The notes: generated by a model not told the origin, from the letters alone. Shown: positions 2,484 through 40,919, counted from the first letter of the stretch. The stretch: 64,000 bases of DNA from Candidatus Kapaibacterium sp. (GCA_025059875.1 JANXCT010000002.1:153180-217179); one strand, 5' to 3'. Translations and numbers: made by a program.

Positions 2484-3026
2484 ATGGCAGAACTCTTTAC
2501 GCCTGCTGAGCTGGAAGAGGTGGAACGAATCAAATCGCTCTATCCGGAGCCACAGGCCGCTCTGCTGCCTGTGCTCTGGATGGTCCAGCGAAAGTACGGC
2601 TGGATTTCGCTGGAGAACATCCGAGCGGTAGCCGAACTCCTACGCCTCCCATATGCCCACGTACTCGGTGTCGTGCGTTTCTACACGATGTTCCACACCG
2701 AGCCAGTCGGACGGTACCACATCCAGGTATGCACGAACGTTTCGTGCATGCTCCGCGGCGGGGAGCGTGTGCTGGAGTACATCTCCGAGAAACTCGGTAT
2801 CCGGCACAAGGAGCGTACGGCCGATGGCCTCTTCTCGCTGGAAGAGGTAGAATGCATGGGCGCCTGCGGCGGTGCCCCGATGATCGCAATCAACGAGGAC
2901 TACTACGAGAACATCACGCTAGAGCAGGTAGACCACCTGCTGGAACGCCTTCGACGAGAGAGCACAGCCGAAAGCAGGCATGAGAGTTTACCAAACGGAC
3001 TCCCCAATGAAGAACTCGCGCCGTGA
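2484..3026 (+). CDS. nuoE: NuoE-like thioredoxin-fold [2Fe-2S] ferredoxin (NADH-quinone oxidoreductase subunit E / HoxF-N family), standalone
   Basis: MAELFTPAELEEVERIKSLYPE...LPVLW..Q...GWIS start typical of NuoE. Four Cys in NuoE spacing (CxxxxC ... CMGACGGAPM). ATG at 2484 inside the longer track ORF 2373-3026. No nuoF/nuoG follows. Confidence 0.7.
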   Translation: MAELFTPAELEEVERIKSLYPEPQAALLPVLWMVQRKYGWISLENIRAVAELLRLPYAHVLGVVRFYTMFHTEPVGRYHIQVCTNVSCMLRGGERVLEYISEKLGIRHKERTADGLFSLEEVECMGACGGAPMIAINEDYYENITLEQVDHLLERLRRESTAESRHESLPNGLPNEELAP

Positions 3027-3753
3027 CTTCCTCCGTCGATTAGCAGCTCTCACAGCTGCGGCTGCTGCTGGGGTACCAGCAACGGCACGACTCTTACCAG
3101 AGCTACTAGGACCTGATCGCCGACCCTGCGGGCGGCTCCGCATCCGCTTGAGCGACTACCCTGCACTCCAAAGTGTGAACGGCTCGGTGAAAGTCAACGT
3201 TCCCGATGCTACTGGTGCCGTTCCCGAGCGGCTCATCATCACCCGAACTGCCACAGACACCTTCGCGGCTGTAGATGACATCTGCACGCATGCCGGTTGC
3301 CTTGTCAATGTCTACCAGGCATCGCTCAGAGCGCTACCGTGCCCCTGCCACGGCTCACTCTTCCATCCGACGGGTGAGGTCATCCGCGGTCCAGCAACTC
3401 GTCCGCTACGGAGCTTCCAGACCTTCTATGAGGCCGGTAGCGACTTCGTGGAGGTAGAAATCCCAGGCTACACGTCTGTCCCGGAGCCTAGCACTGCCTT
3501 CGAGCTGACAGTCGCTCCCAACCCGGCAACGGAGTTCATTACCGTCTCCGGCACTCTGAGGGAGAGTGCCGTCCTGTCCTTCCGTATCCTCTCTACCCGA
3601 GGGCAGACAGTTGTGGAATGGCAACAATGGCTGCCAGCAGGTCCATTTAGCCTTCGGTATCCCCTTAACGGCTTCGCTCCTGGAACTTACTGGCTGCATG
3701 TCTCTGGCCGTTCTGTTCCGAGTGTTGTACAGCCCTTCTCTGTGATCCGCTGA
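3007..3753 (+). CDS. Rieske [2Fe-2S] domain protein with twin-arginine (TAT) signal and C-terminal Por/T9SS sorting domain
   Basis: TAT motif SRRDFLRRLAALTAAAAAG; Rieske box I CTHAGC and box II CPCHGS. The C-terminal ~90 aa (ELTVAPNPATEFITVSG...GTYWLHV...) match the T9SS type-A CTD pattern. Start taken at M10 of track ORF 2980-3753, overlapping the nuoE stop. Confidence 0.7.
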   Translation: MKNSRRDFLRRLAALTAAAAAGVPATARLLPELLGPDRRPCGRLRIRLSDYPALQSVNGSVKVNVPDATGAVPERLIITRTATDTFAAVDDICTHAGCLVNVYQASLRALPCPCHGSLFHPTGEVIRGPATRPLRSFQTFYEAGSDFVEVEIPGYTSVPEPSTAFELTVAPNPATEFITVSGTLRESAVLSFRILSTRGQTVVEWQQWLPAGPFSLRYPLNGFAPGTYWLHVSGRSVPSVVQPFSVIR

Positions 3754-5207
3754 TGCGGAGGTGCCGTCTCGGTTTCTTGCCTATCTCGCTCCTTGTTCTG
3801 TTTGGCCTCTCGCTATGGGGATGCGAGACTCCAGACGTTGGGGAATTCGGCAGTGATGCACCACTGGAAGTGACACCACGAGAGGTCGACTTCAGAAATG
3901 TACGCGTAGGGCAGACAGCCGAACTATGGCTCCGCATCCGTAATCGAGCAGATTCAGCCATTGTCTTGGCTCCTTCCATCACCGGAGCTGATAAAAATGC
4001 CTTCAGCATTGCGCGACAACCCAGCGGAGCACTCCGCCCCGGCCAGAGTGATAGTCTGCTACTCCGCTTCTCCCCAACCGAAGCCCGTGTGTACCAGGCA
4101 ACACTCCTCCTTGGCGGGGACAATCCCTTGAACATCCCCTTGCGCGGGACTGGTACAACAGGAGACCGAATGGAGCTCTTGGCTGTCGTTGCCTCAACAC
4201 CGCCGGAGATCGACGGCTCCGCCTCCGACGCTGTCTGGAATGCAGCTCCACCGCTCCACCTCCAGCTCTTCCAGGTAGAGCCTACGGCCAACGATCCTCG
4301 GACTCTCTCGGCAACACTGCGAGCTGCCGTGGACAACGAGTTCCTGTACCTACTCGTGGAAGTTGCCGATCCAACCCCTCACGAAACTCCCAACATCTTC
4401 CGCTTCCGCGGTGGGGACCCTGCCTCCGACGCGAATTGGACGCTGACCACAGAGGGGCAAGATGGTCTCGGCTTCATCTTCCCGATTGGAGACCCGCAAA
4501 GCGTTCGAGGTGACAGACTTGGAGAGACCTTCGCTACCATCGGCTGTGCTGTCGCCTGCCATCCTACCGCCACTACGAACGCTTACGAAGGCGGCAGCTA
4601 CCCAACCTATGGGCGGATTGACCTCTGGTACTGGAAGGCGGGGACTACAAACCCCCAGGGCTACGCTGACGACTACATTGCCGAAGGGCGCGATGGGACG
4701 ACATTCCCTGAGGAGCGCCGTGGTGATGTAGGAAATGCGTTTGAAGAGCCCAACTATCCACCACGCGGAGCCGGTCCGCTCCTACCTATCAGCATGGCTG
4801 GCGGAGACAACGGCGGATTGGACCGACGCCGCTTCCTGTGGCAGGCTACCTCTGTACCCTTCAACCCCCGAGCTCCGAACCCAGCAACTGGTCGACCCTG
4901 GGCTGCCGGCGATGTAGTTCCAGGCTGGACCCTTCGAGGCCAAGAGCATCCCTTCTCCAGCCGTGGTGACATCCAGGCCCGCGGACGCCACGCGAGTGGC
5001 CGTTGGACCATTGAACTACGGCGCCGGCTCTCCACCGGGAAGAGTGACGATGCCTCGTTTGACCGCGGGCGCTCCGTTCCCTTCAGCCTGGCGTACTTCG
5101 ACAACACGCGCAAGTATGCCGTCTTTGAATACCTCAACCTCACCTCGGCCCCTCGCCCAGGCCACTTTGGCCCTAATCCTCCGGTCATTTGGCTACACTT
5201 GCCATAA
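3753..5207 (+). CDS. Lipoprotein with N-terminal ASH/Ig-like domain and C-terminal ethylbenzene-dehydrogenase-like (EB_dh / DOMON-like) heme-binding domain
   Basis: Lipobox LSLWGC after a hydrophobic signal. Ig/ASH-like segment (EVTPREVDFRNVRVGQTAELWLRIRN...NIPLRGTG). EB_dh-type segment (PPEIDGSASDAVWNAAPPLHLQL ... Y/W-rich). Start codon ATGA-coupled to the Rieske gene stop. Confidence 0.55.
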   Translation: MRRCRLGFLPISLLVLFGLSLWGCETPDVGEFGSDAPLEVTPREVDFRNVRVGQTAELWLRIRNRADSAIVLAPSITGADKNAFSIARQPSGALRPGQSDSLLLRFSPTEARVYQATLLLGGDNPLNIPLRGTGTTGDRMELLAVVASTPPEIDGSASDAVWNAAPPLHLQLFQVEPTANDPRTLSATLRAAVDNEFLYLLVEVADPTPHETPNIFRFRGGDPASDANWTLTTEGQDGLGFIFPIGDPQSVRGDRLGETFATIGCAVACHPTATTNAYEGGSYPTYGRIDLWYWKAGTTNPQGYADDYIAEGRDGTTFPEERRGDVGNAFEEPNYPPRGAGPLLPISMAGGDNGGLDRRRFLWQATSVPFNPRAPNPATGRPWAAGDVVPGWTLRGQEHPFSSRGDIQARGRHASGRWTIELRRRLSTGKSDDASFDRGRSVPFSLAYFDNTRKYAVFEYLNLTSAPRPGHFGPNPPVIWLHLP

Positions 5208-15455: not shown

Positions 15456-16725
15456 CGCGCTGGCTCACGCCTCTCTCTCGCACTCCCAGAGCCACGAGCA
15501 CCTGCTCAAGGATTGCGTCGTATGAAAACCGTGCAGCGTTCTCATCCGCAGCAGCTTGGCGCCACTGACAGCGCTGAGCTTCAGAAAGGGGTGCGATCGT
15601 CTGGACTGCCGTAGCAAGTGTCTCTTCAAAGCCGTGCGGCTCTTCCCAGTACCATCCCGTGCGACCTTCCTGGAGAAGGTGAAGGAGCGAAGCACGACGA
15701 GGTAACACAAGAGGAAGCCCTACTCCTAAGGACTCATTTGCTGAGATAGCCGGCTGCATCCACACACCGAGATCTGCTGCAGCCGCTAGCCGACGCGTCT
15801 GCTCCGGTGGCAAGAATGGATAGACCGCAAAGTGCTCGGGTATCGGCTGACGTTGGATCTGCTCCAGTAGCTCCCTCTGGTACCCATCCCCCAATCCACC
15901 AACCAGCACATACCGCACTGGAAGCCCGACTCGCTGCATCTTACCAACGGCAGCGATGATACGCTCAAGACCTTTTCGCGGGACAACTCGTGTGACAGTG
16001 AGGATGAGCACCTCTTCAGGCCTCACTCCAAGTTGCTCTCGAGTCTGCTGCCGCTCCAACGCGGAGAAGAAGAAGAGCTGAGGGTCATAGCCGAGCGCTA
16101 GCACTCGTGCCTTTGCCTCCAGAAGTTCTAGCTCCTCCCTATTAGCACAGCATTGCTGCAACCATTCCAGCGTTGCCGGCATATTGCAGACGAGTAACTC
16201 AGCACGGCGAATAGCACGACGATAGAACGGACGCTTCACGAGCTCAAACCCTCGATCCTGTAGCCAGCTAACAACTCGCGCCGACAATGAGTGCCGACGG
16301 CGGTACTCATGCAACTCGCTGAAGAAACACGCGATTGGCACCTGCCTCAGCTCTGCAGCCGTCAGAATTGGTACACCGAAGAGCTTTCCCACCCCCAACA
16401 GCAGAATCGCGTCAGGGCGCCACTCCACAACAGCAGAGACAACCCCACGGCTCAGCACTGCCGAGCGAAACCGAAAGGCAACCGGCAGACGCACGAGCTC
16501 GTAGCCATCCTCGCATATCCTGCCTACGGGATAAGGCCGGCGCCGTAGCCGCCGAGCACTGGAGGAGACTGCCGTGGAAGTAACTACCCGTACCGCAATC
16601 CCTTTACGGACCAAGGTCCGAGCAATCCAGACCTCCTGATACCCCACCTCGGGCATGAAGTGGCCACATACAACGGCAATTCGCATACCAAAAGCTCTCG
16701 GTAGCCTTTCGCTCCCGATGCTCAC
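15439..16725 (-). CDS. Glycosyltransferase family 4 (GT-B)
   Basis: GT-B fold motifs (MRIAVVCGHF..., C-terminal ...GVGLPLV...). Likely start at MRIAVV (16686). Confidence 0.65.
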   Translation of the reverse strand: MSIGSERLPRAFGMRIAVVCGHFMPEVGYQEVWIARTLVRKGIAVRVVTSTAVSSSARRLRRRPYPVGRICEDGYELVRLPVAFRFRSAVLSRGVVSAVVEWRPDAILLLGVGKLFGVPILTAAELRQVPIACFFSELHEYRRRHSLSARVVSWLQDRGFELVKRPFYRRAIRRAELLVCNMPATLEWLQQCCANREELELLEAKARVLALGYDPQLFFFSALERQQTREQLGVRPEEVLILTVTRVVPRKGLERIIAAVGKMQRVGLPVRYVLVGGLGDGYQRELLEQIQRQPIPEHFAVYPFLPPEQTRRLAAAADLGVWMQPAISANESLGVGLPLVLPRRASLLHLLQEGRTGWYWEEPHGFEETLATAVQTIAPLSEAQRCQWRQAAADENAARFSYDAILEQVLVALGVRERGVSQRDGKAA

Positions 16726-19352
16726 CGTTTCACGAAGAGCCGAGTCTCCACCCTCCCTCTGAGGTACACTCGGACTCCGTAGACTCCGGGTGCCCAGCCG
16801 TGGAGGTTAATGCCTGCCTTCTCCCTGCCCCTCAAGCTCTCGCGATAAACGCAGCGCCCGAGTGGATCCACAACCTCCACTGATACCACCCTCCCTCCCT
16901 CAACCAGCAGCCATACGACCTCCGTTGCAGGATTTGGCTCAAGACGCCACCGCAGAGAGCTTACCTCTTCTACGCTCGTGCGAACGAACCGATACGGATC
17001 CGAGATACTGGAGCAGCTATCCACCGTCACCTGCACGTAGTAGATGCCATCCCGCGGCGGGACGAACTCCCGGCCTGTCGCCCCAGGGATCGGTTGCTTG
17101 TTCTCATCCAGCCACTGGTTCCCTGTCAGCGCGCTCGAGACGAGCGTATCCCCGCGCTGTCCAATGACAGGCTTCGGAGGACGCGGGGCAACGGTTACAT
17201 GAACGCTATTGAGTGATCGCACCACGCCACATGCATTGCGAGCCTCCACCGTGTACCTTCCACCCTGCCAAACTCGAAGGACAGTATCCTGAGCCCTGGG
17301 AAGCGCGGTATCGTTACGGAACCACTGAAAGGCTACTCCAACCTCCCCAGCAATGCGGAGCTCTACAGTATCTCCACGGCAGAGCCGAACCCCACCTTCA
17401 GGCACAATCCTCGGCCTCCTCGGCAAGGGACGCATCGTCAGCGTAACGTTCCTCCGCCCTCGGACACTCCCACAGGCATTGTAGGCCTCCACACTGTACC
17501 GCCCCGATTGGGAAGCAGCATAGGCCGTCGCATCCTCTGCCACGACAATCGAATCACGCCACCACCGGTACCGAACCCCTGGCTGCGGCTGCAGAACGTA
17601 GAGCACAACCTGACGCCCTTCACAGAACACAGTATCGCCATCTATCTCGAGCTGCGGCTCCTGCGGACGTTGCTGAGCAGAGAGCAAGCGCCCATTATCG
17701 TTGCTGTAGGCAATCGGCTGTGAAGCTGAGACTCTGATCCGGTATTGCCCCCCAGGAGGCTGGAACGGAACGAAGACTCGCAGCCCTGTGTCTCGACGAG
17801 CCGCGACCGAATCGAGAACTAGTGGAACCTGGAAGCTTCCCCCTGCGTCGGAGAGCTCCACACGGAACATGTTGTTTGCACCAAACTCCCCGCCACGCAC
17901 ACGCCAGCGGACCAGAAGGCTGTCACCCGTACAGAGGACCGTGTCGGGCACTGCCTCCAACTCAAGGCTCAGGAGGTACCCCGATAGACGCACGAGGAGT
18001 CCATCGGCAAGTCCCGCCAGCGCCGACTGGTACGACGGAGGCTCGAGTGGGACATCGGTGCTCGTAGTACTCCCGACAAGCGCTATGTTCCCCGCGCTAT
18101 CTACGGCGATCCCCAGAGCAGCATCGCCAGCACCCCCTCCTAGTAGAAGACTCCACTGCGGCATACCCTGCCGATGGAGCTTCAGGAGGAAGCAGTCATC
18201 CCCTTCCGTAGAGCGTTGTCCTACGCCAATCTGTGGGAAATTCGAGCTGGCCGTACGTCCAGCAATGTAGAGGTTCCCCAACGCGTCCACAGCACAGCTT
18301 GTGGCGACGTCATTCTCCCCGCCGCCGAGGAAGGTCGCCCAGCGTAGCCCTCCGCTTGCTGAGAATTGGACCGCGAACCCATCCGCTCCCCCTCCAGCAT
18401 ACTGAAGCTGCCATATGGGAGTAATCGGCAAATTCTGGCTCCCTGTCATCCCTACGACGGTCACCCACCGCTCCGAGGTTACCGCGATCCCCAGGGCCCG
18501 GTCGCTCTCTGTCCCGCCATAGTAAGTAGACCAGCCCCACACGCCAAAGGGTCCAAACGAGGCAACGAAGGCATCTGTACCACCCCGCAGGACCTGCTGG
18601 AAAGCATTCCGCAGTGGGAAGTTCGAACTACTGGTCTCTCCGCAGATGTAGATGTTGCGGCGGTCATCCACACAGATCGCCGTGGCATAGTCAGGTCCGG
18701 AGCCACCGAAGTAGGTCGCCCACACCCGTGCCCCATCAGGTCGAAGCTGTAGCACAAACGCATCAGTATACCCAGCCAGTCGGTTCTGGACAGCGTTCGT
18801 GGTCACAGAAAAGTTCGTACTGCTTGTGTAGCCCACAACATTCAGCAGTCCCTGAGCATCCACCGCAACGGCTGTTGCCCCCTCCTCTCCGTTCCCACCA
18901 TAGTATGTCGCCCAAAGACGGACTCCATCAATGGAGAAGCACGCAATGAAGGCGTCGCTCCCTGCTGCTTTGGTGGACTGGAAAGCATTCGCAACGGGGA
19001 AGTCCGAACTCGCAGTCACTCCCACGACGTAAATCCTTCCTCCGCTGTCTACCGCAACCCCGAGGGCACGGTCATTGTCGCTGCCTCCTAGGTAGGTGGA
19101 CCACAAGAGAGAGCCGGAGGACGAGAACTTTGCAATAACGGCATCTTCGCGCCCCCGGTTCTGCCCCTGCCAGGCGTTGACGACCGGGAAGCTCACCCCC
19201 AAACTCCACCCAACTACCACGATTGAACCATCTGACGCTATGGCCGTTGCTCGCAGCTCATCCTGGGCTGGCGAGCCGAGATAGGTACCCCAATCAACCG
19301 TTGGCTGAGCAAAGGCCGGTAGGAAAAGGAGAAGCGTCCATGCTCTTTGCAT
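16722..19352 (-). CDS. SBBP (beta-propeller) repeat protein with C-terminal Por/T9SS sorting domain (T9SS cargo)
   Basis: More than 8 repeats of the SBBP pattern (YLGGSxxDxAxGIAVDxxGNIYVxGxTxSSxFP); Sec signal MQRAWTLLLFLPAFA. C-terminal ~80 aa (RLEPNPATEVVWL...GVYGVRVYL...) is a T9SS type-A CTD. Start set at MQRAW (19352); the track ORF extends into the tRNA. Confidence 0.7.
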   Translation of the reverse strand: MQRAWTLLLFLPAFAQPTVDWGTYLGSPAQDELRATAIASDGSIVVVGWSLGVSFPVVNAWQGQNRGREDAVIAKFSSSGSLLWSTYLGGSDNDRALGVAVDSGGRIYVVGVTASSDFPVANAFQSTKAAGSDAFIACFSIDGVRLWATYYGGNGEEGATAVAVDAQGLLNVVGYTSSTNFSVTTNAVQNRLAGYTDAFVLQLRPDGARVWATYFGGSGPDYATAICVDDRRNIYICGETSSSNFPLRNAFQQVLRGGTDAFVASFGPFGVWGWSTYYGGTESDRALGIAVTSERWVTVVGMTGSQNLPITPIWQLQYAGGGADGFAVQFSASGGLRWATFLGGGENDVATSCAVDALGNLYIAGRTASSNFPQIGVGQRSTEGDDCFLLKLHRQGMPQWSLLLGGGAGDAALGIAVDSAGNIALVGSTTSTDVPLEPPSYQSALAGLADGLLVRLSGYLLSLELEAVPDTVLCTGDSLLVRWRVRGGEFGANNMFRVELSDAGGSFQVPLVLDSVAARRDTGLRVFVPFQPPGGQYRIRVSASQPIAYSNDNGRLLSAQQRPQEPQLEIDGDTVFCEGRQVVLYVLQPQPGVRYRWWRDSIVVAEDATAYAASQSGRYSVEAYNACGSVRGRRNVTLTMRPLPRRPRIVPEGGVRLCRGDTVELRIAGEVGVAFQWFRNDTALPRAQDTVLRVWQGGRYTVEARNACGVVRSLNSVHVTVAPRPPKPVIGQRGDTLVSSALTGNQWLDENKQPIPGATGREFVPPRDGIYYVQVTVDSCSSISDPYRFVRTSVEEVSSLRWRLEPNPATEVVWLLVEGGRVVSVEVVDPLGRCVYRESLRGREKAGINLHGWAPGVYGVRVYLRGRVETRLFVKR

Positions 19353-19376
19353 CCGTTCCCCTTGCCACCGTTCTAG

Positions 19377-19450
19377 CGCGCCCGGCAGGACTCGAACCCG
19401 CAACCCCCAGATCCGAAGTCTGGTGCTCTCTCCAATTGAGCTACGGGCGC
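19377..19450 (-). tRNA. tRNA-Arg (anticodon TCG)
   Basis: Reverse complement folds as a cloverleaf: acceptor GCGCCCG/CGGGCGC, D-arm TAGCTCAATTGGAGAGAGC, anticodon loop CTTCGGA (U33, anticodon TCG), T-arm GGTTCGAGTCC. Confidence 0.8.
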
Positions 19451-19462
19451 AGCAGTGCAAAT

Positions 19463-23394: not shown

Positions 23395-23472
23395 AGTTAC
23401 GAAGGACCCATCGGACGCATGCCAACTACTACACTAACCGCAGGTTGAGAGCTGTGTACTTCCGGTGGGTTG

Positions 23473-23480
23473 TATCTTTG
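23473..23480 (+). promoter_or_regulatory. Candidate Bacteroidota-type -7 promoter element (TATCTTTG) upstream of trpB2
   Basis: Exact TAnnTTTG match 46 nt upstream of the trpB2 ATG, in the divergent intergenic region with ppiD. Confidence 0.2.
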
Positions 23481-23525
23481 TGCAGCACCAAAAACGACAG
23501 GCAGTCCAACTCTACGAGGGTCGTG

Positions 23526-24902: not shown

Positions 24903-24926
24903 CTGGGCACCATCCCTTCTCAAACA

Positions 24927-34933: not shown

Positions 34934-37900
34934 ATGACAAAATGCGGGCTCTCCTGCGGAATACTTGCTGCAGCACTGTCCCTACAGGCAATTGCTGAAG
35001 AGTTACGGCTTCACTGGGAATGGCGCACCCCGCAGGAGGCTCTGTTGACGATCTCTGTTCCAATCCCACTCCTGCTCCAAGCACCTGAAGGTGTACGGCA
35101 AGCAGCTCCGAACTCCCGTTGGGCTTTTCCACTCCCTGACTGGTCCCTCTACGGATTTGCCATCCCTATGGAGCTACCTCTCCAGACTACACTCCGGAGC
35201 GACATCGTGCAGTGGGAGGAACTACCGCTGCCAGCACCACTCCAGCGACGTACGTGCCAAGAATGCTCTCCTGGAGAGCCGCTTGTAGCGCAGCTTGCGC
35301 CCATCGGCTCCTCAGGGGACCGACCCGTTGTAGCGCTGCGCCTCTTGCCGTATCACCCAGTAGAGCATGGCACTCGGCTCCGTGTCGCACGTCAGCTCCG
35401 GCTCCACTTGCGCCTTCCCCAGCCTTCGACAGTTCGTGAGTCCCTAGTTCTGCTGGATTTCAATCCCTCCCGATTAGCATCTCCCCTAGCAGACGTACCC
35501 CTTTCCACCTCAGAACAGCAACTCCCTACAGCTCCCGACGGCTTTCAATACAAGCTCATCGTTCGCCGCCAGGGACTCGTTCGAGTCACAGCTCGACAAC
35601 TGCTCGATGCTGGGCTACCGCTCGCAGCTATCCCTGTAGCGACGCTCCGCCTCTGGAACCGTGGACGTGAAATTCCGCTGTACGTTTACGATCGTAACAA
35701 CAATGGCTACCTCGATGACTATCCCCCAGACCCCGACTACATTGCCTTCTTTGGTGAGCCCAATCGGCTGAACTTCCGTAACCGTGACCGCGATATGTAC
35801 CTTGACCCCGAAACGGAAGAGAATGTCTATGCCCTCACTTGGGGAGGGGGAAATGGGAAGCGGATGGTTGAGGAGTCCGGCGATATCCGCATCCCTGACC
35901 CGCGACGAGCTATAGACCTACGCGGGAAGAGTTTCCGGAGTACTGTCATCGTAGAGCACAACCGAGTCGAGGAACGCTTCGGAGCCGTAGAGGCACAAGA
36001 CCGTGATCTCCTGCTCCCCAGCTTCCAAGGGGACCAACTCTTTTGGGCCCGAGTACCGGCGAACACTAGTGTGACCCTTCCCGTCCCCTTACCCGCACCG
36101 GCGCTCCTGGCAGAGGACTCTGTACGGGTAGAGGTGATGCTATGTGGTGCCATAGCACGTCCCTTGCCGTGCCCTATTCCTGAGCATACTGCGGAGATCT
36201 ACCTCAACCGTCGGCGAATTCTCCGAGCTTCTTGGTCGGGAGCCCGTCCGTTCACTGTTCAGTCCCCTCAACACCAGATTGCTCCCATCCCAGCTTCTGT
36301 TCTCGCTGAAGCCGACAGCAGCACCATTACGGTTGCCAACATCTTTGACTGTCCCCAAGCCAGCGACCGAATTCCCAGCTTCTACGTCAACTGGGTGCGG
36401 ATCGAGTATCCACGGCTCTACGTTGCGACGAACGATGAGCTCTGGTTCTGTACTCCTCCCGGCTCCCCTCCAGGGGTTTACACCTTCGCCCTCGAGGGCT
36501 TTCAAACACCAAATGTCCTGCTCTTCCGCGCCGGCATCTCGCGCATCCTCAACTACAGTCTCGAACGGGTCCGACTGCCTTGGGGGGCCGTGCGATACAC
36601 CATCCGCTTCCAGACTTACGTTGCCTCACCGGAAGAGCTCTTCTATGCTATCGCCGTAGACAGCGTTGCCGGTCCTGCGCGAATTGTCCGTGACCTTCCC
36701 TCCAGCCTATCCCATCCTGACAACGCCGCTGATTACATGATCATCACGCACAAAGGCCTCTGGGATCGCCGTCAGCCACAGGCGAATTCACCAGACCATC
36801 CCATTCAGCGACTCCTCCGCTTGCGGCAGCAGCAGGGGCTGCGCACGATGGTTGTGGACGTTGACGACATCTACGACGAGTTCAATGACGGTATCGCCTC
36901 ACGGGATGCCATTCACCGCTTCCTGCGATTTGCATGGTTGCGGTGGCGAGTCCCTCCGCGGTATATTGTGCTTGTTGGAAATGCCACAGCCATCCCACCG
37001 CAACTATGGCAGACACGCCGCTGGGGAATGACCCCTACGGACTACACGTACGGTTGCGTGGAAGGCACCTACCAAACTCCCACAGGCGCCCTGACGGACG
37101 ATCCGATCCCTGAAATGGCCGTTGGGCGTATTCCTGCAGAATCATTGGCTGATCTGGAAGCCGTAGTGGCAAAGCTGTGGGAGATGGAGGAAGGATACGC
37201 CACGACGTACTTCCAGCCCCGTGCCCTCTTGGTAGCTGGCATCAACGGCTTCATTCACCAGACAGAACTCTTGGCAACGCGGCTCCCCTTGGGACTGTCG
37301 CAGCGCCGCCTCTACGTCCAGCCTGGCACTCCGTACACTGGACATACAGCCGAGCTCCTCCAACTGTTTGCCGATGGAGCTGCTGTCGTCAACTTCCTCG
37401 GCCACGGTGGTGGGGGTATCTGGGAAGATGCCGGGCTACTGCAGGATGAAGATGTTGAGCTCTTCTCCAACCGTGGTCGCTACCCCATTGTCTCCAGTCT
37501 TACGTGCTTCACTGGCGCCTTTGAGCAGCAAGCGGGACGCCGCGGTCTACTGAGCAGCCTCGTTGTAACACCGGGACGTGGGGCCGTCGCCGCTTGGGGG
37601 AACTCCGGCTATGGTTGGCTGGAGAATAGCTTCTTGCTGTCGCTGGCGCTCCTGGAAGCTGTCACAGCCCCCACAGGACGTCTCCAACGTCTTGGAGATG
37701 CTTTCCGTGCTGGCAAAGCCCTCTATGCCGCCCGTGCCTATGGGCTACAGAACGAGATCGTGCTCTCTATGCTCCTGCAGGCAACCCTTATCGGCGATCC
37801 AGCCCAGCTCTTGCGGCTCCCAACGGACACAGTTGAGCTTCGGCTGAGCCGTACAGCCGCTACCGCTGGCGAGGTGCTCACAGTGGTCACCTCTCTGCCG

Positions 37901-39895
37901 TTTTCCTCAGGAAGCGCCCGAGTTCTCCTTGCCGATGAGTATGGCAACGACTTGCCCGGAGGCGAGCGGGTTATCTCCCTCAATGGCCCACGGCTTAGCT
38001 TCTCGGTAACAGTCCCTGCTAACTATATCGGCACGCGCCTCTCCATTCGCCTCTACGCAGTAGAGTCTAACCGGCAACGTGCGGTCATGGGAGGGGCACA
38101 CGTCAGCACAGGTGCTGTTATTCTGGGGGAAATCCAGACCTCACCTTCACCGCCAGTAGCCGGTCAGCCTCTGGCATTGCGCATTCCCATCCGCAGCCGT
38201 ACTGCTATCCAGAGTGTGACCGCCACTGTCAACATTGCCTTCCCTGACGGTACTACAAGCTCTTTGGGACCTATGCCCTGTCAACTCGTTAGCGCCGAGG
38301 TGTACCAGACCGAGCCTCCCATCTCGGCAGCGCTCATACGGGCTGGGGCAGAGATTAGGGCAGTGTTTACGGTCCTTCTGAGCACAGGGCAGAGCATTAG
38401 CTCTCCTATGGCCATCTTCTCGGTCCCAGGGATTGCGGACCCAGCGGTTGTCCAGCCCTTAGCAGGAGACAGCTTACGCACGGCCACCCCATGGCTGCGC
38501 TGTGTCCCAACAGCACAGGGAGCACATCTTCAGGTCCACCTCTACAACTGGCGGGAAACCCCTGCAGGCAACGTCTTGGTCCGTCTGTGGCGCTCCATGC
38601 CGAACGGTCCCCCGCAACTACTGGCTGAGCAGCGTGTGGACATCCCCGGCAACGGCAGCACGGACTGGCTCTTGCGTCCACCCAGAGCTCTACAGAAGGC
38701 CTATCTCCTCTGCGAAGTCGCTAGCGATAGTCTCTCTACCGGGGGTGATCGGTTAGCGAGCAACAATCGGGCTGGAGATAGTCTTCTACTGGGCTGCTTT
38801 GCACTCTTGCCGTCCGTTGGTACTACCGACAATGGCCTGCAGCACTCCCCTGTTGGGATTGAGGGGATAGCGACTGTTGCCGTCCTCCCTGCTCAAGCTC
38901 CGGCGGCTACCGCGCTCCTGTGGATTGAGACCCTCCCCTCCACTCGGACTGTACAGCCGAACGTCCATCTCGTACGTCTTGCCGATAGTTCTGCCGCTGT
39001 GGCAGTGACGGTCTCTTCTCCAACCACGGTCGTAGCAACATTGCAGCTGTGGTACCTGCCACAGGACACCGCGCTCGTCCATGGCCTACCGGCCATCTAC
39101 CGCAAACATAGCCGCTTAGACCTCTGGGAACGCCTCCCCACCCAGCAGATTGGTCCTGGCGTTGTGCAAGCTTCCGTAGTACTTCCTGGCATCTTCGCCG
39201 TTGCGACAAGCTCAGACCGGCGTCCTCCCCAAGTTCGGATAACAGCGGAAGGACGAGCTCTCCCGGCTCGGACTGTCCTCTCGGCGAATCCCCGAATCAG
39301 CATCGTTGGCATAGATGAAAATGGGGTCTCCACCGACACCTCTACCATCCGCTTGACACTGAACGGACAACCCGTACCCGTCCAGCAGCTCAGCATCTCA
39401 GACAGTGCCCAGACACCGACTGCCACCAGCATCAGCTACCGTCCTCAGCTCCAGAGTGGGACCCATATCTTGTGTGCCACGCTCGTAGACTGCAACGGTA
39501 ATCCCAGCGAACGCACCTGCATCCAGATGGAAGTCTCCACACAGCTCGACCTGCGGTTGCTAGGGACCTATCCGAATCCTTTCCGCGAGGAGATGTTCAT
39601 CGCCTACGAGCTGCTGGGGACAAGCAGCGTCGACGAGGTAGAGCTCCGACTATACACTGCTTCGGGACGCTGCATCCGCCGGATGGTCTTCCCAACGACT
39701 TCCCCCGCGGAGGCCTTCGGATTCTTACGCGGCGGGACCGGAATCCCGACAATGCCAGGATACCATGAAATCTGGTGGGACGGCATGGACAACGAAGGCC
39801 GTCCTGTAGCAAATGGGATCTACTTCTACCGACTCCGTGTCCGGTCGGGTGACACCATTGTGGAGCGACGCGGCAGTGTGGCGCGGGTTCGCTAA
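34934..39895 (+). CDS. porU: Type IX secretion system sortase PorU (gingipain-like C25 peptidase), unusually long (1653 aa)
   Basis: Signal peptide. Peptidase C25 core (ADYMIITHKGLW, VGNATAIPP, TDYTYGCVEG, catalytic His in NFLGHGGGGIWED, Cys in SLTCFTGAF). Multiple Ig/FN3-like beta domains. C-terminal FlgD-Ig/T9SS-like domain (GTYPNPFREE...GIYFYRLRV). Immediately followed by porV. Confidence 0.75.
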   Translation: MTKCGLSCGILAAALSLQAIAEELRLHWEWRTPQEALLTISVPIPLLLQAPEGVRQAAPNSRWAFPLPDWSLYGFAIPMELPLQTTLRSDIVQWEELPLPAPLQRRTCQECSPGEPLVAQLAPIGSSGDRPVVALRLLPYHPVEHGTRLRVARQLRLHLRLPQPSTVRESLVLLDFNPSRLASPLADVPLSTSEQQLPTAPDGFQYKLIVRRQGLVRVTARQLLDAGLPLAAIPVATLRLWNRGREIPLYVYDRNNNGYLDDYPPDPDYIAFFGEPNRLNFRNRDRDMYLDPETEENVYALTWGGGNGKRMVEESGDIRIPDPRRAIDLRGKSFRSTVIVEHNRVEERFGAVEAQDRDLLLPSFQGDQLFWARVPANTSVTLPVPLPAPALLAEDSVRVEVMLCGAIARPLPCPIPEHTAEIYLNRRRILRASWSGARPFTVQSPQHQIAPIPASVLAEADSSTITVANIFDCPQASDRIPSFYVNWVRIEYPRLYVATNDELWFCTPPGSPPGVYTFALEGFQTPNVLLFRAGISRILNYSLERVRLPWGAVRYTIRFQTYVASPEELFYAIAVDSVAGPARIVRDLPSSLSHPDNAADYMIITHKGLWDRRQPQANSPDHPIQRLLRLRQQQGLRTMVVDVDDIYDEFNDGIASRDAIHRFLRFAWLRWRVPPRYIVLVGNATAIPPQLWQTRRWGMTPTDYTYGCVEGTYQTPTGALTDDPIPEMAVGRIPAESLADLEAVVAKLWEMEEGYATTYFQPRALLVAGINGFIHQTELLATRLPLGLSQRRLYVQPGTPYTGHTAELLQLFADGAAVVNFLGHGGGGIWEDAGLLQDEDVELFSNRGRYPIVSSLTCFTGAFEQQAGRRGLLSSLVVTPGRGAVAAWGNSGYGWLENSFLLSLALLEAVTAPTGRLQRLGDAFRAGKALYAARAYGLQNEIVLSMLLQATLIGDPAQLLRLPTDTVELRLSRTAATAGEVLTVVTSLPFSSGSARVLLADEYGNDLPGGERVISLNGPRLSFSVTVPANYIGTRLSIRLYAVESNRQRAVMGGAHVSTGAVILGEIQTSPSPPVAGQPLALRIPIRSRTAIQSVTATVNIAFPDGTTSSLGPMPCQLVSAEVYQTEPPISAALIRAGAEIRAVFTVLLSTGQSISSPMAIFSVPGIADPAVVQPLAGDSLRTATPWLRCVPTAQGAHLQVHLYNWRETPAGNVLVRLWRSMPNGPPQLLAEQRVDIPGNGSTDWLLRPPRALQKAYLLCEVASDSLSTGGDRLASNNRAGDSLLLGCFALLPSVGTTDNGLQHSPVGIEGIATVAVLPAQAPAATALLWIETLPSTRTVQPNVHLVRLADSSAAVAVTVSSPTTVVATLQLWYLPQDTALVHGLPAIYRKHSRLDLWERLPTQQIGPGVVQASVVLPGIFAVATSSDRRPPQVRITAEGRALPARTVLSANPRISIVGIDENGVSTDTSTIRLTLNGQPVPVQQLSISDSAQTPTATSISYRPQLQSGTHILCATLVDCNGNPSERTCIQMEVSTQLDLRLLGTYPNPFREEMFIAYELLGTSSVDEVELRLYTASGRCIRRMVFPTTSPAEAFGFLRGGTGIPTMPGYHEIWWDGMDNEGRPVANGIYFYRLRVRSGDTIVERRGSVARVR

Positions 39896-40919
39896 GTGTA
39901 TCGTAGTCCTCGGGGCCAGCATCCAACTATGGGCCGAAGAGGAGCGGTATGCCGCCGCCTTCCTCGAAATCCCCTTGGGAGCCCGGGCCCTCGGCCTCGG
40001 TACAGCCTTCACTGCTATTGCAGACGATGCCTGGGGATTCTACTGGAATCCAGCAGGCACAGCACTGACACCCCCAACAGTGCTCGTAGCCGGGATGTAC
40101 AGCTCGCAGTACGGGGCAATTGGATCACCACTGGCCCACTTCTTCCACACTGGACTGCTCCTGCCTATCTCCGGACTACGGGTTGGGGTCCACTGGGTCC
40201 GGTTCACCGCCCCTGACTTACGGGCGTATCCCGACCTGACGCGTGTCCTCTCTCCCCAGGAGCGGGAGGAGCTTGTACGGCGTGCGAGTGCTGGGGACTT
40301 CATCCCGAATGCGGATGAGGCCATCTGGATCGTGCTCGCCCGACTCCTCGTGGTACCAGTGGACTTCGGTTGGCTACGCTTCCAAGTGCCGGTCGAGTTC
40401 CCCGTAGGACTGAACATTAAGCTCCTCCACGAGCAGATTGCCGAACACCGTGCCTCGGGCATCGGGGTGGACGTTGGCGCTATGCTGCGCGTCAACCTCA
40501 AGGACATTGCCTTTGACGAGCGCTGGCCACGCCTCTCGCTTGGGGTCAATGTGCGAGACCTTGGTGGAACACGGCTGCTTTGGACCACCCAGCGACCGCA
40601 CCGTATCCCTCCCTCCGTCTCCTGGGGAGTGGCATTGACACAGCCCTTGGAGGCATGGAAACTAGAACTGACGCTGGGGTATAGCCGTGACGAGCGCTAC
40701 GGAGGGCATAACAACTACGGCATTGAAGTCCTCTATCGCCGTAGTTTTGCCCTCCGGGCCGGCACGTACCGCTCAGTGCTGACCCTTGGGGCCGGGGTTG
40801 ACGCCGGCGTTCTGACAGCTGACTACGGCTTCCTGGCAGACTCAGACACACAACTGGGGAATGTCCACCGCCTGGGCATATGTCTCCGTTTAGAGCCTCT
40901 GCTGAAGCGATTGCAATGA
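39876..40919 (+). CDS. porV: Type IX secretion system outer-membrane protein PorV (LptO)
   Basis: PorV family signature right after the signal peptide (FLEIPLGARALGLGTAFTAIADDAWGFYWNPAG). Beta-barrel amphipathic strands to the end. Start placed at GTG 39876 (20-nt overlap with porU); the in-frame ATG at 39813 would overlap porU by 83 nt. Confidence 0.75.
   Translation: MWRGFAKCIVVLGASIQLWAEEERYAAAFLEIPLGARALGLGTAFTAIADDAWGFYWNPAGTALTPPTVLVAGMYSSQYGAIGSPLAHFFHTGLLLPISGLRVGVHWVRFTAPDLRAYPDLTRVLSPQEREELVRRASAGDFIPNADEAIWIVLARLLVVPVDFGWLRFQVPVEFPVGLNIKLLHEQIAEHRASGIGVDVGAMLRVNLKDIAFDERWPRLSLGVNVRDLGGTRLLWTTQRPHRIPPSVSWGVALTQPLEAWKLELTLGYSRDERYGGHNNYGIEVLYRRSFALRAGTYRSVLTLGAGVDAGVLTADYGFLADSDTQLGNVHRLGICLRLEPLLKRLQ

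What the first reader, a model, noticed from the sequence alone, without database searches (positions are those of the whole stretch)
2484..5207. Possible cell-surface redox module: standalone NuoE-like ferredoxin, TAT-Rieske protein with T9SS sorting domain, and EB_dh/DOMON-like heme lipoprotein
Three co-directional, overlapping or abutting genes. (1) A NuoE-type [2Fe-2S] ferredoxin with no nuoF/nuoG partner. (2) A Rieske [2Fe-2S] protein with a twin-arginine signal and a Por/T9SS C-terminal sorting domain. (3) A lipoprotein with an Ig/ASH domain and an ethylbenzene-dehydrogenase-gamma-like (EB_dh/DOMON-like, heme b-binding in characterised members) domain. The combination reads as an electron-transfer chain reaching the periplasm or outer surface. 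I am not aware of a described family combining a Rieske centre with a T9SS CTD. The immediate downstream gene is homogentisate dioxygenase (aromatic/tyrosine catabolism), which may or may not be linked.
Basis: partly seen in the sequence, partly recalled or inferred. Interest (0 to 1): 0.7.

Follow-up and report, generated by a model that had tools for sequence, protein, structure and literature searches.

The report
Tat-exported Rieske protein with T9SS tail
A hot-spring-type Kapabacteria genome encodes an iron-sulfur (Rieske) protein that appears to be exported folded by the Tat pathway and then passed to the type IX secretion system, next to a lipoprotein that looks like a new covalent-haem cytochrome; this hints at an undescribed outer-surface electron relay, while the neighbouring 'NuoE' is just an ordinary complex I gene.

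Summary
The three genes and their domains are real and lie at the stated coordinates.

- **nuoE (2484-3026)** is an ordinary complex I subunit. In this lineage nuo genes are scattered (PMC6338057). The same singleton nuoE occurs in relatives with no Rieske or EB_dh gene beside it.
- **The Rieske gene (probable start 3007, ends 3753)** has a Tat leader above the curated cut-off and bc1/b6f-type cluster boxes. Its type A T9SS C-terminal domain scores below cut-off in this copy but is clear at family level. An exhaustive profile search found about 70 clusters (50% identity) with the same layout. Of 61 examined, 56 hit TIGR04183 and 54 have an RR motif. I found no paper describing Tat-dependent or Fe-S T9SS cargo.
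- **Linkage:** the Rieske and EB_dh genes also occur singly in sister genomes, so they are not obligate partners.
- **T9SS in the window:** PorU/PorV-like genes and one other T9SS cargo are present.

Function (an outer-envelope one-electron relay) is inferred, not shown.

The parts
2484..3026 (+). nuoE: cytoplasmic thioredoxin-like [2Fe-2S] subunit of complex I. It is a neighbour, and possibly co-transcribed, but not part of the extracytoplasmic module.
   Evidence: TIGR01958 scores 184 against a cut-off of 142; PF01257 scores 186 bits. Four Cys are present and there is no signal peptide. It is 60-68% identical across the class. It is a singleton in L008 and L010. Dispersed nuo genes are reported for this lineage (PMC6338057).
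3007..3753 (+). Tat-Rieske-T9SS-CTD protein, 248 aa from ATG 3007. An upstream in-frame ATG at 2980 would give 257 aa.
   Evidence: The start at 3007 fits homologue lengths and the M-x-x-SRRxFL N-termini.
3007..3087 (+). Twin-arginine leader MKNSRRDFLRRLAALTAAAAAGVPATA, with a short Ala-rich h-region and an A-T-A site.
   Evidence: TIGR01409 scores 23 against 16.7. The sequence was read directly. 54 of 61 family members carry an RR-x-F/L motif. That the leader is cleaved is inferred.
3196..3417 (+). Rieske [2Fe-2S] domain. Cluster boxes are CTHAGC (3283-3300) and CPCHGS (3340-3357), including the disulfide cysteines.
   Evidence: PF00355 scores 44.8 bits. The ligands are invariant in the alignments. 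The AF2 model has pLDDT above 90 in this region. The best fold matches are PetC3 5cxm (TMt 0.77, 30% identity), Chlorobaculum 8hn2 and Kuenenia 9rk4.
3505..3750 (+). T9SS type A C-terminal sorting domain. It has the PNPAT motif, G-x-Y-W-L-x-V, and ends in ...FSVIR.
   Evidence: It is sub-threshold in this copy. AF2 predicts a 7-strand sandwich. It aligns with the CTD of a bona fide cargo from the same window (E = 3e-4) and with CTDs from L009, L028 and L034. 56 of 61 family members hit TIGR04183.
3753..5207 (+). Lipoprotein with an Ig (ASH / choice-of-anchor D) domain and an EbdC/NxrC-fold (EB_dh/DOMON) domain; a putative mono-haem cytochrome.
3753..3824 (+). Signal peptide with lipobox L-W-G-C24, followed by acidic residues (CETPD).
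   Evidence: Cys24 is conserved in at least 90% of homologues. Relatives have CSDDS, CKDNS or CSEDS after the Cys. Surface exposure is inferred from the Bacteroidota lipoprotein export signal, which I recall from memory.
3858..4154 (+). PapD/ASH-type Ig domain. Relatives of about 800 aa have four of these.
   Evidence: PF22073, PF15780 and NF012200. tblastn finds four Ig copies in L006. Fold matches are to HYDIN and CEP192 PapD-like domains.
4170..5204 (+). EB_dh / DOMON-type beta-sandwich domain.
4545..4562 (+). CAVACH: an invariant CX3CH motif, the putative covalent haem c attachment site with His270 as axial ligand.
   Evidence: Invariant in 19 of 19 homologues at 40-92% identity. In about half of them (9 of 18 full-length), including the window protein, these are the only Cys after the lipobox Cys; the others carry one to three additional Cys. 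The motif lies 12 residues upstream of the position equivalent to the EbdC/NxrC Met ligand.
34934..40919 (+). Context: a PorU-like Peptidase_C25 gene (34934-39895) and a PorV/PorQ-family gene (39813-40919), candidates for the T9SS sortase and shuttle.
   Evidence: PF01364 E = 1e-65. NF033707 scores 167.7 bits and NF033709 scores 85.4 bits; both are below the equivalog or subfamily cut-offs.
16722..19460 (-). Context: another T9SS type A cargo in the same window, an SBBP beta-propeller protein of 912 aa.
   Evidence: TIGR04183 scores 31.2 against 23. PF06739 and PF19081 also hit.

Best explanation
The finding is two extracytoplasmic redox-protein genes lying downstream of an unrelated housekeeping gene.

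nuoE is the normal N-module subunit of a complex I whose genes are dispersed in this lineage. It stays in the cytoplasm.

The Rieske protein would receive its [2Fe-2S] cluster in the cytoplasm and be exported folded by Tat. Its short Ala-rich leader would be cleaved at A-T-A. The periplasmic intermediate would then be recognised through its type A C-terminal domain by the type IX secretion system. PorU-like and PorV-like genes lie 30 kb away. T9SS would take it across the outer membrane, where the CTD is removed and the protein is either anchored to the surface or released.

The downstream gene, coupled by a TGATG overlap, encodes a lipoprotein. An Ig spacer carries an EbdC/NxrC-fold domain that binds one haem. 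That haem is most likely attached covalently through Cys265 and Cys269, with His270 as one axial ligand and His471 or Lys454 as the other.

Together the two would form a one-electron relay at the outer membrane or cell surface. The direction of transfer and the external partner are unknown. Each protein can also work without the other.

Shown: gene structure, domains, motifs, fold, family size, and neighbourhood patterns.
Inferred: leader cleavage, actual T9SS transit, covalent haem, surface location, and electron transfer between the two proteins.
For: Domains and signals:
- About 70 cluster representatives at 50% identity have the same single-stretch Tat-Rieske-CTD layout.
- Of 61 examined, 56 hit TIGR04183 (best E = 3.6e-12), 54 have an RR motif, and 52 have CxH...CxxH.
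- The L009 orthologue has SRRDFL and PF18962 at 40.9 bits against a cut-off of 27.
- The window CTD aligns with the CTD of a same-genome cargo and is predicted as a 7-strand sandwich.
- PorU/PorV-like genes and another cargo are in the window.

Gene C:
- CX3CH and His471 are invariant in 19 of 19.
- The Met-ligand position is Ser in the window protein.

Operon structure:
- The genes overlap.
- The trio is conserved in 8 distinct contigs down to 49-56% Rieske identity.

Recurring haem or copper partners for this Rieske subfamily:
- A CCP_MauG - Rieske-CTD - Rieske operon in an Ignavibacteria MAG (L034).
- Bacteroidales Rieske lipoproteins with a DUF5777 outer-membrane barrel within 4 kb in 12 of 15 loci.
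- In L028, the Rieske lipoprotein sits beside a cupredoxin with a T9SS CTD, a CXXCH protein and YceI.

nuoE as housekeeping.
Against: - The window protein's own CTD scores below both curated cut-offs.
- The PorU-like and PorV-like genes are below the NCBIfam equivalog or subfamily cut-offs. No SprA, PorK, PorL, PorM or PorN was seen in the window.
- Described T9SS cargo use Sec (PMC5445135), so a Tat-to-T9SS route has no experimental precedent that I could find.
- The Rieske-CTD and EB_dh genes each occur alone downstream of nuoE in sister genomes, and Rieske-CTD occurs alone in L033 and L035. A direct partnership is therefore not required.
- No cytochrome c maturation genes are in the window.
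- CX3CH is a non-standard haem c motif, and I had no access to model coordinates to check the pocket geometry.
- No electron donor or acceptor is identified.
Confidence: 0.5

Rival explanations
1. Periplasm-only reading. The Rieske protein is a soluble, or Tat-anchor-tethered, periplasmic electron carrier. Examples would be a carrier between ACIII or quinol-level donors and periplasmic haem enzymes, or a donor to a peroxidase. In this clade its C-terminal sandwich would be a degenerate former CTD used for protein docking rather than secretion. Gene C would be a periplasm-facing lipoprotein cytochrome.
For: The window CTD is below the cut-offs. Bacterial Rieske Tat signals are often uncleaved anchors (PMC8047123). 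The L034 operon pairs the family with a periplasmic CCP_MauG enzyme. The lineage lacks bc1 but has ACIII and oxidases (PMC6338057).
Against: The CTD motifs (PNPAT, GxY, terminal hydrophobic-x-R/K) are retained, and 10 of 12 close homologues still hit PF18962. 56 of 61 wider members hit TIGR04183. The h-region is short and Ala-rich with an AxA site, unlike a membrane anchor. The L034 member itself carries a CTD on record without a weak or faint mark.
Confidence: 0.2
2. NuoE, Rieske and the EB_dh haem protein form a dedicated electron path from the cytoplasm to the surface, with NuoE as a stand-alone ferredoxin.
For: nuoE overlaps the Rieske gene by 20-47 nt. It precedes a Rieske-CTD gene and/or an EB_dh gene in three flanking contexts (window clade; SQS_PSYx2...rhomboid; L009), giving three downstream arrangements. 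No nuoF is nearby.
Against: NuoE has no export signal and passes the NuoE family model, including the N-terminal helical domain that pairs with NuoF. It is far more conserved than its neighbours. It keeps its locus when the downstream genes are absent (L008, L010). Dispersed nuoA-N genes are documented for this lineage, and L007 has a lone nuoD. There is no membrane-spanning component to connect a cytoplasmic ferredoxin to periplasmic proteins. Rieske-CTD genes outside Kapabacteria lack nuoE.
Confidence: 0.05
3. Gene C is not a cytochrome. It would be a surface glycan-binding or adhesin lipoprotein (CBM9/DOMON sugar-binding branch plus an Ig domain) whose two cysteines form a disulfide, and its adjacency to the Rieske gene would be incidental.
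Confidence: 0.12
4. Gene C binds haem b non-covalently, as EbdC and NxrC do, and the CX3CH cysteines have a structural role.
For: The domain matches PF09459 and the EbdC/NxrC fold. Lys454 is conserved in 18 of 19 near the region aligned to the EbdC/NxrC Lys ligand.
Against: The Met ligand position is Ser in 13 of 19 members, including the window protein. TIGR03477 scores 18.6 against 169.85. The C-X3-C-H motif is invariant.
Confidence: 0.13

Closest known systems
T9SS type A cargo proteins (for example gingipains RgpB/Kgp, Flavobacterium ChiA and SprB; TIGR04183 / PF18962 CTD)
   Same: A C-terminal Ig-like sandwich of about 80 aa with PNP, GxY and terminal basic-residue motifs. The host is in the Bacteroidota/FCB group. 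PorU/PorV-like genes are in the same genome.
   Different: The leader is twin-arginine (Tat) rather than Sec. The passenger is a small Fe-S redox protein rather than a hydrolase or adhesin. Secretion has not been shown.
Small bc/b6f-type Rieske proteins that work outside a bc complex, for example Synechocystis PetC3 (5cxm) and Kuenenia kuste4569 (9rk4)
   Same: Similar fold (TMt 0.77, 30% identity to PetC3), CTHxGC...CPCHGS boxes with the disulfide, and Tat-type export.
   Different: This protein has a cleavable-looking leader instead of a membrane anchor, and an added T9SS CTD. No cytochrome b partner is nearby, and the lineage is reported to lack bc1.
EbdC / NxrC / SerC-type gamma subunits of type II DMSO-reductase-family enzymes (PF09459; haem b with Met/Lys ligation)
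   Different: No Mo-enzyme alpha or beta genes are nearby. This protein is a lipoprotein with an Ig spacer. The Met ligand position is Ser. It has an invariant CX3CH and His471, which points to covalent haem. TIGR03477 scores far below cut-off.
Sulfolobus cbsAB-soxLN (extracellular haem protein CbsA encoded with the Rieske protein SoxL); recalled from memory, not tested here
   Same: It pairs a Rieske protein with a mono-haem protein outside the cytoplasmic membrane in an organism that lacks a classical bc1 cytochrome c1.
   Different: It is archaeal, with membrane-anchored haem b, cytochrome b (SoxN) in the operon, and no secretion-system tag. The only sequence link found here is a weak soxL2 hit (E = 0.004).
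Porin-cytochrome and multihaem extracellular electron transfer systems (MtrCAB, PioAB); analogy only
   Same: The proposed role is moving single electrons across or at the outer membrane. Bacteroidales relatives of the Rieske protein sit beside an outer-membrane beta-barrel (DUF5777).
   Different: There are no multihaem cytochromes. The cofactors are [2Fe-2S], one haem, and (in L028) copper. Delivery would be by T9SS or lipoprotein sorting.
NuoE (Nqo2) of the 14-subunit complex I
   Same: Gene A passes the NuoE family model and has the four Cys ligands.
   Different: It is not adjacent to nuoF or nuoG, which is normal for this lineage (PMC6338057).

Membership tests
T9SS type A cargo | C-terminal domain matching TIGR04183 / PF18962 above the curated cut-off | tested here: inconclusive
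   The window protein scores 16.7 against 23 and 21 against 27. At family level, 10 of 12 and 56 of 61 members hit at E <= 0.01, and the L009 orthologue scores 40.9 against 27.
T9SS type A cargo | Ig-like 7-strand beta-sandwich with conserved PNP, GxY and C-terminal strand motifs | tested here: met
   AF2 predicts 7 strands over aa 167-246. P, N, P, G and Y are invariant when aligned with CTDs from the same window, L009, L028 and L034. BLASTP against the same-genome cargo CTD gives E = 3e-4.
T9SS type A cargo | N-terminal Sec signal peptide, as in all described cargo | tested here: not met
   The leader is Tat-type: SRRDFL, TIGR01409 23 against 16.7. 54 of 61 family members have RR. The review states that cargo are Sec-dependent.
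T9SS type A cargo | The genome encodes the T9SS machinery | tested here: inconclusive
   A PorU-like gene (NF033707, 167.7 against 420) and a PorV/PorQ-family gene (85.4 against 90) are in the window, along with another cargo above cut-off. The core genes sprA and porKLMN were not seen in the 64 kb.
T9SS type A cargo | T9SS-dependent secretion and CTD cleavage | not testable with these tools
   This needs proteomics or genetics.
Tat substrate | S/T-R-R-x-F-L-K motif, a moderately hydrophobic h-region, and a cofactor-bearing passenger | tested here: met
   The leader is MKNSRRDFLRRLAALTAAAAAGVPATA. TIGR01409 is above its cut-off. The passenger is a Rieske Fe-S domain.
bc1/b6f-type Rieske protein | CxH...CxxH ligands plus the two disulfide cysteines (CTHxGC / CPCHGS) | tested here: met
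   PF00355 scores 44.8 against 20.3.
bc1/b6f-type Rieske protein | Subunit of a cytochrome bc complex (cytochrome b partner; equivalog model) | tested here: not met
   The PetC and QcrA equivalogs are far below cut-off (53 against 250, and so on). There is no cytochrome b gene within +/-10 kb. The lineage is reported to lack complex III.
NuoE (complex I) | Matches the nuoE family model, with four Cys for cluster N1a | tested here: met
   TIGR01958 scores 184 against 142, and NF005722 scores 143.3 against 141. The Cys are at CTNVSC and CMGAC.
NuoE (complex I) | Encoded with nuoF and the other nuo genes | tested here: not met
   None are present in the window or the flanks. Dispersed nuo genes are documented in this lineage, and L007 has a lone nuoD.
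Type II DMSO-reductase gamma subunit (EbdC/NxrC/SerC) | EB_dh fold | tested here: met
Type II DMSO-reductase gamma subunit (EbdC/NxrC/SerC) | Met/Lys axial ligation of haem b | tested here: not met
   The Met-equivalent position 282 is Ser. The Lys equivalence is unresolved: Lys454 lies nearby, but the sequence alignment does not reach the Lys ligand.
Type II DMSO-reductase gamma subunit (EbdC/NxrC/SerC) | Encoded with molybdopterin alpha and Fe-S beta subunits; matches TIGR03477 | tested here: not met
   No such genes are in any of the loci. TIGR03477 scores 18.6 against 169.85.
c-type cytochrome | C-Xn-C-H haem attachment motif in an exported protein | tested here: met
   CX3CH, a non-canonical spacing, is invariant in 19 of 19. 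In the window protein and about half of the homologues these are the only Cys after the lipobox Cys. A signal peptide with lipobox is present.
c-type cytochrome | Covalently bound haem; maturation system present | not testable with these tools
   No ccm or ccs genes are in the window. The lineage has ACIII and aa3 oxidase, which implies a maturation system exists. Covalent binding needs biochemistry.
Bacterial lipoprotein | Lipobox with an invariant Cys after a hydrophobic signal | tested here: met
   The signal is ...LFGLSLWGC24, and the Cys is conserved in at least 90% of homologues. The -2 Trp is atypical.

The most novel reading that the evidence does not exclude
Members of the Bacteroidota/FCB group use the type IX secretion system, fed by Tat, to place folded, cofactor-loaded single-electron carriers on the cell surface. 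These carriers would include Rieske [2Fe-2S] proteins and, in related clusters, cupredoxins. They would work with lipoprotein DOMON-fold c-type cytochromes and small outer-membrane barrels as an extracellular electron-transfer system built without multihaem cytochromes. This would be both the first Tat-to-T9SS export route and the first extracellular Rieske protein.
Probability: 0.3. Interest if true: 0.85.

Novelty: new variant of a known kind. Interest (0 to 1): 0.62.

Why it matters
T9SS cargo are described as Sec-exported hydrolases, adhesins and motility proteins. A large, conserved family of Tat-leader Rieske proteins carrying canonical T9SS sorting domains would matter in three ways:

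1. It would imply that Tat and T9SS can act in series.
2. It would imply that the T9SS translocon passes a protein with an assembled Fe-S cluster.
3. It would imply that Bacteroidota-group bacteria put redox cofactors on their surface. That bears on extracellular electron transfer, on iron and oxygen chemistry at the cell surface, and on the respiration of lineages that lack a bc1 complex.

The neighbouring lipoprotein may add a new cytochrome type: an EbdC/NxrC DOMON fold with covalent haem through CX3CH.

All of this can be tested with standard genetics in Flavobacterium and with simple haem and EPR biochemistry.

The finding also corrects a tempting mis-reading. The lone nuoE is ordinary in this lineage.

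Tried and rejected
- **Word-index homologue search for the Rieske protein.** It suggested a tiny family of about 12 clusters. The exhaustive profile search overturned this.
- **phmmer of gene C against PDB sequences.** It found nothing. The full-length profile was swamped by HYDIN-type Ig hits, so I cut out the EB_dh domain to get residue-level alignments to NxrC and EbdC. Even then the alignment does not reach the Lys ligand, so the distal ligand stays unresolved.
- **Foldseek of the Rieske-CTD model.** It returned Rieske hits only. No solved T9SS CTD appeared in the top 50. The only CTD-region hit was DUF3244 (4g5a).
- **AFDB fold search.** The library was unavailable.
- **Literature searches.** DOMON + ethylbenzene dehydrogenase + Rieske, and Kapabacteria + Rieske, returned nothing. 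CXXXCH + DOMON returned nothing relevant. Rieske + T9SS returned only incidental co-mentions.
- **Promoter and terminator scan.** No sigma-70-like promoters were found, which is expected since Bacteroidota-type promoters are not covered. The terminator-like hairpins were not above shuffled expectation. One lies at 2426-2442, between DUF2279 and nuoE.
- **A link to homogentisate dioxygenase.** Rejected: the adjacency is confined to one syntenic clade, L002 has an extra gene inserted, and the other arrangements lack hmgA.
- **AtuA and DUF2279 upstream.** Treated as unrelated synteny for the same reason.
- **Cluster-member names.** They gave almost no taxonomy. Members are generically named or mis-named.

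Full report
**What is there**

The window comes from a MAG labelled 'Bacteroidota bacterium' (GCA_033581675.1, contig JAVQST010000002.1). Its relatives are labelled Kapabacteria, Chlorobiota or 'Bacterium HR21'.

Three co-directional genes occupy 2484-5207.

- **Gene A (2484-3026)** passes the NuoE family model: TIGR01958 scores 184 against a cut-off of 142, and PF01257 scores 186 bits. It has the four cluster cysteines and no signal peptide.
- **Gene B** has a Tat leader (TIGR01409 23 against 16.7) and a Rieske domain (PF00355 44.8 against 20.3) with CTHAGC and CPCHGS boxes. Its C-terminal domain hits the T9SS sorting-domain models only below cut-off: PF18962 21 against 27, TIGR04183 16.7 against 23.
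- **Gene C** has a lipobox, a PapD/ASH-type Ig domain, and an EB_dh domain (PF09459 85.2 against 33.3).

The junctions are tight. nuoE and the Rieske gene overlap, and the Rieske and EB_dh genes share TGATG. The Rieske start is probably ATG 3007 (MKNSRRDFL) rather than 2980. That gives 248 aa, in line with homologues of 245-250 aa.

**Is the C-terminal domain a real T9SS signal?**

- The close family keeps PNPAT, GxYWLxV and a terminal hydrophobic-x-R. Ten of 12 members hit PF18962 individually.
- AF2 (pLDDT 80) predicts a seven-strand sandwich for aa 167-246.
- The domain aligns with the CTD of a bona fide cargo encoded in the same window (16722-19460, TIGR04183 31.2 against 23) at E = 3e-4. 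P, N, P, G and Y are invariant across CTDs from four loci.
- The orthologue in a Ca. Kapaibacterium genome (L009) has an exact SRRDFL leader and a CTD at 40.9 bits.
- The exhaustive profile search is the strongest evidence. Among the best 150 representatives (50%-identity clusters), about 70 are proteins of 240-285 aa matched in one stretch across leader, Rieske domain and CTD. Of 61 examined, 56 hit TIGR04183 (best E = 3.6e-12), 54 have an RR-x-F/L motif, and 52 have the CxH...CxxH ligands.
- The window also carries a PorU-like Peptidase_C25 gene and a PorV/PorQ-family gene at 34934-40919, although both are below NCBIfam's strict cut-offs.

So Tat + Rieske + T9SS CTD is a genuine, sizeable architecture, and the window protein is a somewhat diverged member of it. 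The T9SS review I read describes cargo as Sec-dependent (PMC5445135). Searches combining Rieske or Tat signals with T9SS found no description of such cargo.

**The Rieske domain**

Fold search places it with small bc/b6f-type Rieske proteins that act outside canonical complexes: PetC3 5cxm (TMt 0.77, 30% identity), Chlorobaculum 8hn2 and Kuenenia 9rk4. The bc1 and b6f equivalog models are far below cut-off. No cytochrome b gene is nearby. The lineage is reported to have ACIII and no bc1 (PMC6338057).

**NuoE is not part of the module**

- It is 60-68% identical to hundreds of Kapabacteria and Ignavibacteria NuoE clusters. The Rieske and EB_dh proteins fall to 31-45% at comparable distance.
- In related genomes it is always a singleton, typically after two SQS_PSY genes, and never next to nuoF.
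- The slot downstream of it varies:
  - empty in L008 and L010;
  - Rieske-CTD only in L009 and the P0012 contig;
  - EB_dh only in L006 and L007;
  - both in the window clade, L001-5 and L011-16.
- L007 also has a lone nuoD.
- Outside Kapabacteria, Rieske-CTD genes are not next to nuoE (L033, L034, L035).

A lone nuoE is therefore ordinary here. At most it shares a transcript with its neighbours.

**Gene C**

- A domain-only profile aligns IDLWYWKA (aa 289-296) with EbdC VNAWYWKA (115-122) and NxrC VNLWHWKA (162-169).
- NxrC haem b is ligated by Met155 and Lys305 'as in EBDH' (PMC8387239). Met155 lies 7 residues before that strand. EbdC Met108 (numbering recalled from memory) has the same spacing.
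- The equivalent residue 282 is Ser in the window protein and in 12 other family members, Met in five, and His in one.
- By contrast Cys265, Cys269, His270 (CAVACH) and His471 are invariant in 19 of 19. Lys454 and Lys295 are conserved in 18 of 19.
- In the window protein and in about half of the full-length homologues (9 of 18), the two motif cysteines are the only ones after the lipobox Cys. The other homologues carry one to three additional Cys, mostly in their extra Ig repeats.

I read this as a c-type attachment site with non-standard CX3CH spacing grafted onto an EbdC-like pocket, with His270 replacing Met. This is inferred.

The lipobox Cys is followed by acidic residues: CETPD here, and CSDDS, CKDNS or CSEDS in relatives. 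This resembles the Bacteroidota surface-lipoprotein export signal, which I recall from memory and did not test.

**Are the Rieske and EB_dh genes partners?**

For a partnership:
- translational coupling between the two genes;
- conservation of the pair in 8 distinct contigs down to 49-56% Rieske identity;
- both gene types repeatedly landing in the same slot.

Against an obligate partnership:
- each occurs alone in sister genomes;
- the window-clade loci share synteny on both sides (AtuA-DUF2279 ... hmgA), so they are not independent observations.

**Wider context of the Rieske subfamily**

All of these contexts involve envelope redox proteins.
- An Ignavibacteria MAG has a tight CCP_MauG - Rieske-CTD - Rieske operon (L034).
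- Bacteroidales relatives are 134-146-aa Rieske proteins with an RR or RK leader plus a lipobox followed by acidic residues. A DUF5777 outer-membrane barrel lies within 4 kb in 12 of 15 loci.
- In L028 the cluster also holds a plastocyanin-family cupredoxin with a bona fide T9SS CTD (42 bits), a small CXXCH protein, YceI and a Crp-type regulator.

**Most likely mechanism**

1. The Rieske protein is loaded with its cluster in the cytoplasm.
2. It is exported folded by Tat, and the leader is cleaved.
3. It is taken across the outer membrane by T9SS.
4. The lipoprotein cytochrome sits in the outer membrane, possibly facing outward.
5. The two form a one-electron relay, with the partner and direction unknown.

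I put about 0.85 on the architecture claims (Tat leader, Rieske, true CTD family, EbdC fold, nuoE unrelated). I put about 0.65 on covalent haem, and about 0.5 on the overall outer-envelope relay.

**Novelty and score**

This is a new variant of known kinds. It is a T9SS cargo class with a Tat leader and an Fe-S passenger, and an EbdC-fold domain with a CX3CH motif. All evidence is computational. The family members are generically named or mis-named in the source databases.

Interest is 0.62. A T9SS or bioenergetics specialist would be surprised, and the claims can be tested directly. However, function and even localisation remain unproven.

Noticed in passing
window 34934-40919 (+): A 1653-aa Peptidase_C25 protein is followed by a 368-aa PorV/PorQ-family protein, so this is a PorU/PorV-like pair. 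Both score well below the NCBIfam PorU and PorV equivalog cut-offs, and both also touch the 'PorU2/PorV2' models. This may be a divergent T9SS sortase and shuttle pair in Kapabacteria.
   Followed up: partly
window 16722-19460 (-): A 912-aa SBBP beta-propeller / Ig_7 protein has a T9SS type A CTD above cut-off (TIGR04183 31.2 against 23). It is an ordinary T9SS cargo in the same window.
   Followed up: partly
L028 4404-10354 (Bacteroides-like MAG CAZOHA010000012.1): This cluster holds a Tat/lipobox Rieske lipoprotein, a Crp-type regulator, a plastocyanin-family cupredoxin with a T9SS CTD (PF00127 + PF18962, 42 bits), a 152-aa CXXCH protein, a DUF5777 outer-membrane barrel and a YceI-like protein. 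It is a second example of a redox protein tagged for T9SS.
   Followed up: partly
L017-L031 (Bacteroidales; for example L019 5140-6399): Small Rieske proteins of 134-146 aa have an RR or RK leader, a lipobox and an acidic stretch (CEEDP, CSEDD). A DUF5777 beta-barrel gene is adjacent or within 4 kb in 12 of 15 loci.
   Followed up: partly
L034 4914-7399 (Ignavibacteria MAG GCA_016844745.1): A tight operon encodes CCP_MauG (di-haem peroxidase family), Rieske-CTD and a second Rieske protein. NCBI names the Rieske-CTD protein 'Two component regulator propeller domain protein', which looks like a mis-annotation.
   Followed up: no
P0013-15, P0030, P0032, P0048 (alignment A1): A second group of Tat-Rieske proteins of similar length has a different, non-CTD C-terminal beta-rich domain with no PNP motif. 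Many profile hits instead have the Rieske domain at the C-terminus of proteins of 260-310 aa.
   Followed up: no
window 3753+281 codons (nt 4596-4598), column 282 of alignment A3: The position equivalent to the EbdC/NxrC Met haem ligand varies within the family: Ser in 13, Met in 5, His in 1. Meanwhile CX3CH is invariant. The family may record a switch of axial ligand.
   Followed up: partly
window 1412-2422 (+): The mechanical ORF for DUF2279 starts at 1412, overlapping AtuA. The source gene call starts at window position 1556 (288 aa). A terminator-like hairpin lies at 2426-2442, just before nuoE.
   Followed up: no
window 23445-25751 (+): A PLP-dependent (PALP) enzyme is followed by an SbnI / ADP-dependent serine-kinase-like protein (NF033589, E = 1e-29). 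This may be an O-phosphoserine-linked pathway.
   Followed up: no
window 44011-46077 (-): A 688-aa protein has a 4Fe-4S dicluster domain and two CCG domains (HdrD/GlpC/DsrK-like). It is another redox protein in the window, with no evident link to the finding.
   Followed up: no
L006-L010 and the P0012 contig: The order SurA - SQS_PSY x2 - nuoE - (variable slot) - rhomboid/DUF6576 - PBP is conserved across Kapabacteria and Ignavibacteria-like genomes. The slot after nuoE behaves like a hotspot for gain or loss of envelope redox genes.
   Followed up: partly
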